A DNA stretch of 64,000 bases from Escherichia coli. Lineage in GTDB: Bacteria; Pseudomonadota; Gammaproteobacteria; Enterobacterales; Enterobacteriaceae. The stretch is from assembly GCF_044324785.1 (NCBI RefSeq), contig NZ_CP172127.1, one strand, 5' to 3'. The notes beneath the pieces were generated by a model. It did no database searches and was not told where the DNA came from. It saw nothing but the letters and a program-made list of their open reading frames with translations. Of the stretch, positions 24,960 to 25,304 are shown in pieces. Position 1 is the first letter of the stretch, and every line of letters starts with the position of its first letter. A program made the translations under genes and the position numbers.

Positions 24960-25304
24960 ACTTCTAAAAGCAGTTTTCAATGATAAATAAAAGGCTATTT
25001 TTAAAAGAGATAATAACGTAGATTGAAATAATATATATTGTTGACTGATTAAACGGAATTATCCTTCACACTACAACCATTTTGCTGCCACTACCAAAGA
25101 AAAAGGGGCTACGCTTTCACGTAACCCCTTGATTTATTTGGTGAGCTGGCGGTGTCTGAATTGGTGCTGTAATGGGTTGAAATATTTCATCTAATGTCTG
25201 GTTCAACTTTCCTTAGCTGCCTGAAAGTTTTTTTGATATTACCCATCAATAATAGGGTTACGGTGTACCACGCCTGACTGATGAACTGCGTGCTCAGAGT
25301 TACC

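What the first reader, a model, noticed from the sequence alone, without database searches (positions are those of the whole stretch)
25125..25165. Degenerate direct repeat of the ssrA 3' terminus about 5.5 kb away, possibly bounding an old island (pinH remnant plus ypjA)
Around 25136..25153 the plus strand reads ttggtgagctggcggtgtctgaa. The plus-strand sequence at the ssrA 3' end (30619..) reads ttggtggagctggcgggagttgaa. That is 15 of 16 matching positions with one indel, in the same orientation. Integrative elements that target tmRNA/tRNA genes leave such partial direct repeats at their distal border. If real, the interval 25.15–30.6 kb (invertase remnant and autotransporter) would be the residue of an ssrA-integrated element that later lost its integrase.
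Basis: inference. Interest (0 to 1): 0.5.

Follow-up and report, generated by a model that had tools for sequence, protein, structure and literature searches.

The report
Fossil attachment-site junction downstream of ssrA
The short repeat of the tmRNA gene's end is real: it is the scar where a CP4-57-like island once inserted into a tmRNA gene already carrying the end of a Fels-2-like phage, an ordinary but well-preserved record of repeated insertions at this hotspot.

Summary
The repeat exists (25138..25160, same orientation as the ssrA 3' end at 30619..) and is not chance, because both of its flanks are recognisable attachment-site arms. To its left, 25077..25138 plus the first 14 nt of the repeat are 95-97% identical to the attP arm with terminator hairpin of Fels-2/SopEPhi-type P2-like phages. 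To its right, 25153..25215 aligns in register with the right arm of K-12 CP4-57 next to its attR (0 of 5000 shuffles score as well). So this is a composite fossil attR: a CP4-57-family element integrated into an ssrA that already carried a Fels-2-type arm. Nine sampled E. coli lineages share it, and about 3,000 of 5,426 genomes carry the region. The 150 nt next to ssrA (30469..30619) is the attP arm of a third family (lambdoid phage LLS/phiNP type). pinH' is a P2-type invertase fragment next to an IS3 fragment. No genome breaks at the two repeats (0 of 5,426); real breakpoints lie at 30468/9 and elsewhere. The interval is therefore layered debris of at least two later elements, not one island. 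This is a known phenomenon (tandem traffic at ssrA), and I found no prior description of this particular junction.

The parts
25077..25138 (-). Relic of a Fels-2/SopEPhi-type (Felsduovirus, P2-like) attP arm. In lysogens this stretch lies directly 3' of ssrA. It contains a terminator hairpin at 25103..25130.
   Evidence: With the next 14 nt it is 97% identical to the ssrA-proximal prophage junction in 13P477T and E308, and 94.8% to the Fels-2 reference genome. The same arm occurs in Fels-2 (annotated attP), SopEPhi, RE2010, SEN8, Cartapus and Klebsiella and Cronobacter phages. Homology with about 40 listed lysogens starts exactly at 25077. A terminator is called on the minus strand. The fold is -33.5 kcal/mol with z -6.4.
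25139..25152 (-). Displaced copy of the last 15 nt of tmRNA, one nucleotide short. The minus strand reads CCGCCAGCTC-ACCA, against CCGCCAGCTCCACCA in ssrA.
   Evidence: All nine sampled lineages carry the same one-nucleotide-shorter core, in two haplotypes that differ by a transition. Small deletions in this segment are typical of displaced fragments of P4-type ssrA islands (PMC10107115, Table 1).
25153..25215 (-). Relic of the right (distal) arm of a CP4-57-family (P4-type integrase) element.
   Evidence: It aligns ungapped and in register with the K-12 CP4-57 right arm next to its attR: 56 of 76 positions including the core, 43 of 61 for the flank alone. The flank score is 25, against shuffles of 11 +/- 2.1 with a maximum of 21, so 0 of 5000 reach it. 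It is conserved in all nine sampled lineages.
25239..25304 (.). Internal fragment of an IS3-family element, a trace of the rearrangements that removed most of the elements.
   Evidence: 86.6% identity over 66 nt to IS3 transposase genes.
25313..25483 (+). pinH': an internal fragment (aa 38-94 of about 189) of a P2-type tail-fibre DNA invertase, with an in-frame stop.
   Evidence: tblastn gives 66.7% aa identity to the invertase of the Fels-2-type prophage in E308 and A28, against 56% to LLS Fin. The nearest phage genes at nucleotide level are P2-like invertases at 75-81%, including Fels-2 at 80%.
25762..30459 (+). ypjA (autotransporter adhesin YpjA/EhaD). It lies inside the interval but cannot be assigned to any element.
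   Evidence: ORF and annotation of strain N3. There is no real counterpart in phage genomes. Its upstream region 25511..25800 is about 88% identical to the ymgJ/ycgH locus.
30469..30619 (-). The 150-nt flank directly 3' of ssrA. It is the attP arm of LLS/phiNP-type lambdoid phages and ends in a terminator hairpin.
   Evidence: 89% identical to phage LLS, where it is contiguous with 39 nt of the ssrA 3' end annotated as tmRNA pseudogene/attP. It is also present in phiNP, Ayreon and PhiR12 phages. LLS homology, the CD306 breakpoint and the AST81 prophage junction all start at 30469. Fold.
30620..30982 (-). ssrA (the tmRNA gene), intact, and the integration target.
   Evidence: ARAGORN, tag peptide ANDENYALAA.

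Best explanation
Window 25077..25215 is a non-functional composite attachment-site junction, a fossil attR. It records successive site-specific integrations into the 3' end of ssrA. Step 1: a Fels-2-type P2-like phage sat at ssrA, so the gene's last nucleotides and its terminator were supplied by that phage's attP arm. Step 2: a CP4-57-family element with a P4-type tyrosine integrase recombined within the last ~15 nt of ssrA. This displaced those nucleotides, still attached to the Fels-2-type arm, to the element's far end, where they now abut the element's own right arm. Step 3: at least one more element integrated, an LLS/phiNP-type lambdoid phage that crosses over in the T-loop region. It left its 150-nt arm and terminator as the present 3' flank of ssrA. 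Step 4: deletions, some IS-mediated, removed every integrase and nearly all element DNA, leaving ypjA, a P2-type invertase fragment and an IS3 fragment between the scars. Shown directly: the homology of the three arms, their order and orientation, the shared one-nucleotide lesion, and inheritance across nine sampled E. coli lineages. Inferred: the order of events (from the rule that newer insertions lie closer to the gene), the deletions, and any residual role of the hairpin as a terminator for ypjCB.
For: Left arm. Identity is 95-97% to the Fels-2-type attP arm, which is found next to ssrA only where a P2-like prophage follows, and in free phage genomes. Right arm. It is in register with the CP4-57 attR arm and 0 of 5000 shuffles score as well. 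Core lesion: plus PMC10107115 Table 1. Proximal flank as an LLS-type arm: and PMC12315714 for LLS attP lying in ssrA. Living analogues of composite junctions: in E308 a perfect 45-nt Fels-2-type attR abuts a P4-type integrase arm, and in AST81 a lambdoid attR of about 32 nt abuts a P4-type integrase arm. In K-12, intact CP4-57 sits on top of the same array and its attR abuts the LLS-type arm. A single old event is indicated by nine lineages sharing the same junction in two haplotypes and by the region's presence in about 3,000 of 5,426 genomes.
Against: No integrase, and no other gene attributable to the CP4-57-type or Fels-2-type element, survives next to the junction. No genome shows an empty site or a more complete version of the array. 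The right-arm homology is only about 70% over 61 nt. pinH' is P2-type but lies on the ssrA side of the Fels-2-type arm, so it needs either a further P2-like insertion or a rearrangement. I could not retrieve Williams 2003 to check whether this junction is already described.
Confidence: 0.82

Rival explanations
1. Single-island model: 25153..30619 is the residue of one ssrA-integrated element that lost its integrase, bounded by ssrA and the degenerate repeat.
For: The repeat is direct and has a real attR-type arm. No integrase lies in the interval. P4-type islands in E. coli are known to carry autotransporter genes (own knowledge, not tested here).
Against: The ssrA-proximal arm is LLS-type lambdoid and unlike the integrase-side arms of CP4-57 and the E308 P4-type element, which resemble each other. 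The interval also holds a P2-type invertase fragment and an IS3 fragment. No genome lacks exactly this interval.
Confidence: 0.1
2. Native-flank model: the 61 nt at 25077..25138 are the ancestral chromosomal sequence downstream of ssrA (its original terminator), which Fels-2-type phages captured. The relic would then be a CP4-57-type attR abutting native DNA, and no P2-like prophage need ever have been there.
For: The geometry of an attP arm is the same as that of a captured downstream host flank. The relic's left homology ends within 6-12 nt of where the phage arms themselves stop being conserved. ypjCB beyond it has no phage homologue.
Against: The arm is 93-98% conserved among phages of Salmonella, Klebsiella, Cronobacter and Escherichia, which is far more than host intergenic DNA would be. 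It is found next to ssrA only where a P2-like prophage follows. Where no such prophage is present, the flank is another element's arm: LLS-type here, CP4-57-type in K-12, and P4-type in S. houtenae.
Confidence: 0.08
3. Chance resemblance: a 15-of-16 match that arose by coincidence in AT-rich intergenic DNA.
For: The window contains an unrelated score-13 match, and with longer queries the site is not the top hit.
Against: Both flanks are independently homologous to att arms (E 2e-26; 0 of 5000 shuffles). Simulation gives P about 0.007 per 10 kb.
Confidence: 0.01

Closest known systems
CP4-57 attR in E. coli K-12 (P4-type integrase IntA; displaced ssrA fragment CGCCAGC-CCACCA)
   Same: A direct partial copy of the last ~15 nt of ssrA, one nucleotide short, joined to a homologous element-side arm (GTCTGAATTGGT...TGTAA...GTTCAA.TTTC). 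It lies downstream of ssrA in the same orientation.
   Different: The arm is only about 70% identical. The element itself, including its integrase, is gone. The chromosomal side is a Fels-2-type phage arm, whereas the CP4-57 attR abuts the LLS-type arm.
Fels-2 / SopEPhi (Felsduovirus) attL junction at ssrA
   Same: The 61-nt arm with its terminator hairpin, contiguous with the tmRNA 3' end, at 95-97% identity.
   Different: Only 14 nt of the 45-nt identity block remain. No P2-like genes follow the arm.
[quoted passage not shown]
   Same: Several integrase classes use different sublocations of the ssrA 3' region. Newer elements lie nearer the gene, and displaced fragments are often damaged. Living arrays were seen in E308, AST81 and K-12.
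   Different: Here the array is reduced to arms and scars with no integrase, so integrase-based island finders would not report it.
Lambdoid phage LLS attP (PMC12315714)
   Same: The 150-nt arm and the adjoining ssrA 3' segment are 89% identical to window 30469..30658.
   Different: In the window the arm is an orphan. No lambdoid genes, integrase or distal attR remain.

Membership tests
Displaced ssrA 3' fragment (attR) of a P4-type / CP4-57-family island | A partial copy of the tmRNA 3' end in direct orientation, downstream of the intact gene | tested here: met
Displaced ssrA 3' fragment (attR) of a P4-type / CP4-57-family island | The element-side flank is homologous to the right arm of a known family member | tested here: met
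   In-register alignment with the CP4-57 right arm; 0 of 5000 shuffles reach the score.
Displaced ssrA 3' fragment (attR) of a P4-type / CP4-57-family island | Identity with ssrA is limited to the terminal ~15 nt, often with a small deletion in CGCCAGCTCCACCA | tested here: met
   PMC10107115 Table 1.
Displaced ssrA 3' fragment (attR) of a P4-type / CP4-57-family island | A cognate tyrosine integrase gene next to the intact ssrA (attL side) | tested here: not met
   There is no integrase between 25153 and 30619. The flank next to ssrA is unlike P4-type integrase-side arms.
Displaced ssrA 3' fragment (attR) of a P4-type / CP4-57-family island | Presence/absence polymorphism whose ends coincide with the two repeats | tested here: not met
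   A synthetic empty-site query found 0 of 5,426 genomes with 80% coverage or more. Observed breakpoints lie elsewhere.
Felsduovirus (Fels-2/SopEPhi) attachment-site arm | The arm sequence with terminator is contiguous with the tmRNA 3' end | tested here: met
Felsduovirus (Fels-2/SopEPhi) attachment-site arm | A 45-nt identity block with ssrA | tested here: not met
   Only 14 nt remain before the sequence switches to the CP4-57-type arm. The intact block is seen in E308.
Felsduovirus (Fels-2/SopEPhi) attachment-site arm | P2-like genes (ogr, D, tail genes) beyond the arm | tested here: not met
   ypjCB and ileY follow instead. ypjCB has no phage homologue.
LLS/phiNP-type lambdoid attP arm | A 150-nt arm contiguous with the ssrA 3' segment that contains the T-loop crossover site | tested here: met
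   PMC12315714.
Active (excisable) genomic island | An integrase, intact att sites and evidence of excision | tested here: not met
   No integrase is present, the core is degenerate, and no excision product appears in 5,426 genomes. Actual recombination activity is not testable with these tools.

The most novel reading that the evidence does not exclude
The fossil junction may still be a usable secondary attR for CP4-57-type integrases. In K-12 its core differs from the genuine CP4-57 attR core by one base, and the arm keeps conserved blocks. If so, IntA/AlpA could occasionally recombine ssrA with it. That would delete the whole array including the ypjA adhesin gene and leave a tmRNA one nucleotide short, which would be an alternative, larger 'switch' of ribosome rescue. 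A milder version is that E. coli depends entirely on domesticated phage arms for the 3' end and termination of ssrA, and that the relic's hairpin now terminates ypjCB.
Probability: 0.06. Interest if true: 0.5.

Novelty: new member of a known kind. Interest (0 to 1): 0.3.

Why it matters
The junction gives a relative chronology for the ssrA hotspot in E. coli: a Fels-2-type phage first, then a CP4-57-type island, then an LLS-type lambdoid phage, and in K-12 CP4-57 itself on top. It shows that the sequence directly downstream of ssrA in this window, terminator included, is phage-arm DNA rather than native chromosome. It also explains why different strains share a breakpoint at 30468/9. In addition, it places ypjA and pinH inside an old integration array, although not inside a single island. 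Practically, it illustrates that arm homology can identify integrase-less fossil att sites that island finders miss. It does not reveal a new mechanism.

Tried and rejected
(1) Chance: addressed by local-alignment ranking and Markov simulation. These were suggestive only, and the flank homologies settled the question. (2) Empty-site search: a synthetic junction joining the ypjCB side and arm directly to ssrA found no genome. A first version of the query was 4 nt short and was rebuilt. (3) The 150-nt flank as the integrase-side arm of the CP4-57-type element: rejected, because it shows no homology to the CP4-57 or E308 arms. (4) pinH' as the invertase of an LLS-like prophage, suggested by the LLS gene order: not supported, because it is closer to P2-type invertases. 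(5) ypjCB or ypjA as phage cargo: no phage homologues were found. (6) The age of the relic outside E. coli: an exact-match scan of species-representative genomes found only an E. coli-like contig in a Planococcaceae MAG. Exact matching cannot exclude diverged copies. (7) Rfam: nothing reaches threshold at the relic. (8) Literature: Williams 2003 is not held, and the other papers do not mention this junction. (9) A28 was examined as a possible clean lysogen but is scrambled by IS3 copies.

Full report
OBSERVATION. The tmRNA gene lies at 30620..30982 on the minus strand, so its 3' end is at 30620 and 'downstream' runs toward lower coordinates. The + strand reads TTGGTGGAGCTGGCGGGAGTTGAA from 30619 and TTGGTGAGCTGGCGGTGTCTGAA from 25138. 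With a 26-nt query this is the best same-strand local match in the 64-kb window at score 14. An unrelated site scores 13, and with longer queries the site is no longer the top hit. A Markov simulation gives P=0.007 per 10 kb of one strand. On its own this is only suggestive.

LEFT FLANK. A megablast of 24300..25800 against 5,426 complete E. coli genomes unexpectedly matched window 25077..25152, at 97%, to DNA annotated as ssrA in a P2-like prophage fragment (H70). The alignment shows that 61 nt of flank plus the last 15 nt of tmRNA are shared, after which the window diverges inside the acceptor stem. The same arm, joined to about 45 nt of the ssrA 3' end, is carried by free phage genomes: Fels-2 (annotated as attP), SopEPhi, RE2010, SEN8, Escherichia phage Cartapus, and Klebsiella and Cronobacter phages. 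The Fels-2 reference itself matches at 94.8%. On the minus strand the relic reads CCGCCAGCTC-ACCA followed by a 12-bp hairpin and a T-run. The scan calls this a terminator, and it folds at -33.5 kcal/mol with z -6.4. In complete lysogens (A28, E308) this arm sits directly 3' of ssrA with ogr, D and the tail genes behind it.

RIGHT FLANK. In K-12, the CP4-57 attR reads TGGTGG-GCTGGCGGAGTCTGAATTGGTTGTGTAACTTGTTG. The window relic reads TGGTG-AGCTGGCGGTGTCTGAATTGGTGCTGTAATGGGTTG. Beyond GGCGG the relic follows the CP4-57 right arm, not ssrA. The alignment is ungapped and in register for 76 nt with 56 matches. The 61-nt flank alone scores 25, against 11 +/- 2.1 for shuffles with a maximum of 21 in 5,000. 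CP4-57's attR is known to carry a one-nucleotide deletion (CGCCAGC-CCACCA), and similar lesions are listed for other P4-type ssrA islands (PMC10107115 Table 1). The K-12 copy of the relic has that same form, and the window copy differs from it by one transition. Window 25077..25215 is therefore a composite junction: CP4-57-type right arm, then ssrA core, then Fels-2-type arm. This is what forms when a P4-type element integrates into an ssrA whose 3' end is being supplied by a resident Fels-2-type prophage.

LIVING ANALOGUES. In E308 a complete Fels-2-type prophage ends in a perfect 45-nt ssrA fragment that abuts the integrase-side arm of a P4-type element. In AST81 a lambdoid prophage ends in a ~32-nt fragment that abuts the same kind of arm. 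In K-12, intact CP4-57 sits on top of the array described here.

THE FLANK NEXT TO ssrA. The 150 nt at 30469..30619 are not homologous to P4-type integrase-side arms. They are 89% identical to the attP arm of lambdoid phage LLS, where they are contiguous with 39 nt of ssrA annotated as tmRNA pseudogene/attP. The LLS paper deduces integration at the ssrA 3' end (PMC12315714). phiNP, Ayreon and the PhiR12 phages carry the arm too. LLS homology begins exactly at 30469, which is also the breakpoint in CD306 and the edge of the AST81 prophage. In CD306, window 19731..30468 is replaced by 333 nt before glaH. The shared breakpoint is thus the edge of a conserved phage arm. Because this arm lies between ssrA and the older junction, it must have arrived later.

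THE INTERVAL. pinH' covers only aa 38-94 of a serine invertase (25313..25483, with an in-frame stop). It is 67% identical to the tail-fibre invertase of Fels-2-type prophages and 56% to LLS Fin. Its nearest phage genes are P2-like invertases at 75-81% nucleotide identity. It lies on the ssrA side of the Fels-2-type arm, so it cannot belong to that same prophage copy without a rearrangement. Window 25239..25304 is an internal IS3 fragment. ypjA and ypjCB have no real phage homologues, so their parent elements are unknown. The interval is best read as debris of at least two later arrivals, joined by deletions.

COMPARATIVE TEST. A synthetic 'empty site' joining the ypjCB side and arm directly to ssrA finds no genome among 5,426, and breakpoints in strains lacking ypjA/pinH do not coincide with the repeats. 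The junction itself is present in nine sampled lineages with the same one-nucleotide-short core, in two haplotypes. The region is present in about 3,000 of 5,426 genomes. This indicates one old event. An exact-match scan of species-representative genomes found it only in an E. coli-like contaminant contig.

RIVALS. Chance is excluded by the two flank homologies. The single-island model is contradicted by the mismatched arm types and by the failed empty-site test. The idea that the 61-nt arm is native chromosome captured by phages is not excluded but is unlikely. The arm is 93-98% conserved across phages of four genera. It is seen next to ssrA only with a P2-like prophage behind it. Element-free contexts show other elements' arms instead, for example a P4-type arm in S. 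houtenae.

VERDICT. The feature is a fossil attR in a layered array at a known hotspot, a new example of a known kind with no sign of present function. Rfam finds nothing there. I could not check Williams 2003 for a prior description.

Noticed in passing
window 30469..30619: The sequence directly 3' of ssrA, including its terminator hairpin, is the attP arm of LLS/phiNP-type lambdoid phages. Three unrelated strain configurations (this window, CD306, AST81) share the breakpoint at 30468/9.
   Followed up: yes
window 25511..25800: The region upstream of ypjA, including a small annotated ORF, is 87-89% identical to the ymgJ/ycgH locus elsewhere in most E. coli genomes. The two autotransporter loci therefore share a duplicated upstream segment.
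   Followed up: no
window 19731..30468: In strain CD306 this whole 10.7-kb block (amylase-like gene, tRNA ileY, ypjCB, relic, pinH', ypjA) is replaced by 333 unrelated nt between the ssrA arm and glaH. One of the tRNA-Ile(CAU) genes is thus part of a variable block.
   Followed up: partly
window 22679..22754: The tRNA gene ileY (anticodon CAT) points toward ssrA, so the region 22755..30619 lies between two convergent integration targets. Whether ypjCB is residue of an ileY-side island was not examined.
   Followed up: no
window 22000..30600: This block is only about 90-95% identical to most E. coli genomes but 99.2% identical to strain N3, whereas the ssrA-smpB side is about 99% identical to many strains. 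The accessory block is a divergent haplotype.
   Followed up: no
window 25085..25155: Within the Fels-2-type arm, CTGCCACTACCAAAG is an imperfect inverted copy of the tmRNA terminal sequence (CTTTGGTGAGCTGGCGG), bracketing the terminator hairpin. It may be a pair of integrase core-type binding sites.
   Followed up: no
L003 11192..11965 and L008 14878..16398: Fels-2-type prophages at ssrA carry variable cargo next to their att arms: a reverse-transcriptase (retron-like) gene between ogr and the arm in A28, and gapS1 next to the integrase in E308.
   Followed up: no
L019 (DEQI01000374.1): A 2.8-kb contig in a 'Planococcaceae bacterium' MAG is 90-92% identical to the E. coli ypjCB-relic-pinH region. 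This is almost certainly contamination of the bin.
   Followed up: partly
L021 5760..6003 (S. enterica subsp. houtenae): The flank 3' of ssrA resembles the integrase-side arm of CP4-57 (72% over 98 nt, with a terminator) and is followed by an IS. This looks like another orphan P4-type arm.
   Followed up: partly
L002 (NZ_CP019274.1): A 15-kb record deposited as a circular 'plasmid' of strain 13P477T consists of P2-like tail genes, ogr and ssrA. It is probably a misassembled or mislabelled piece of the chromosomal prophage junction.
   Followed up: no
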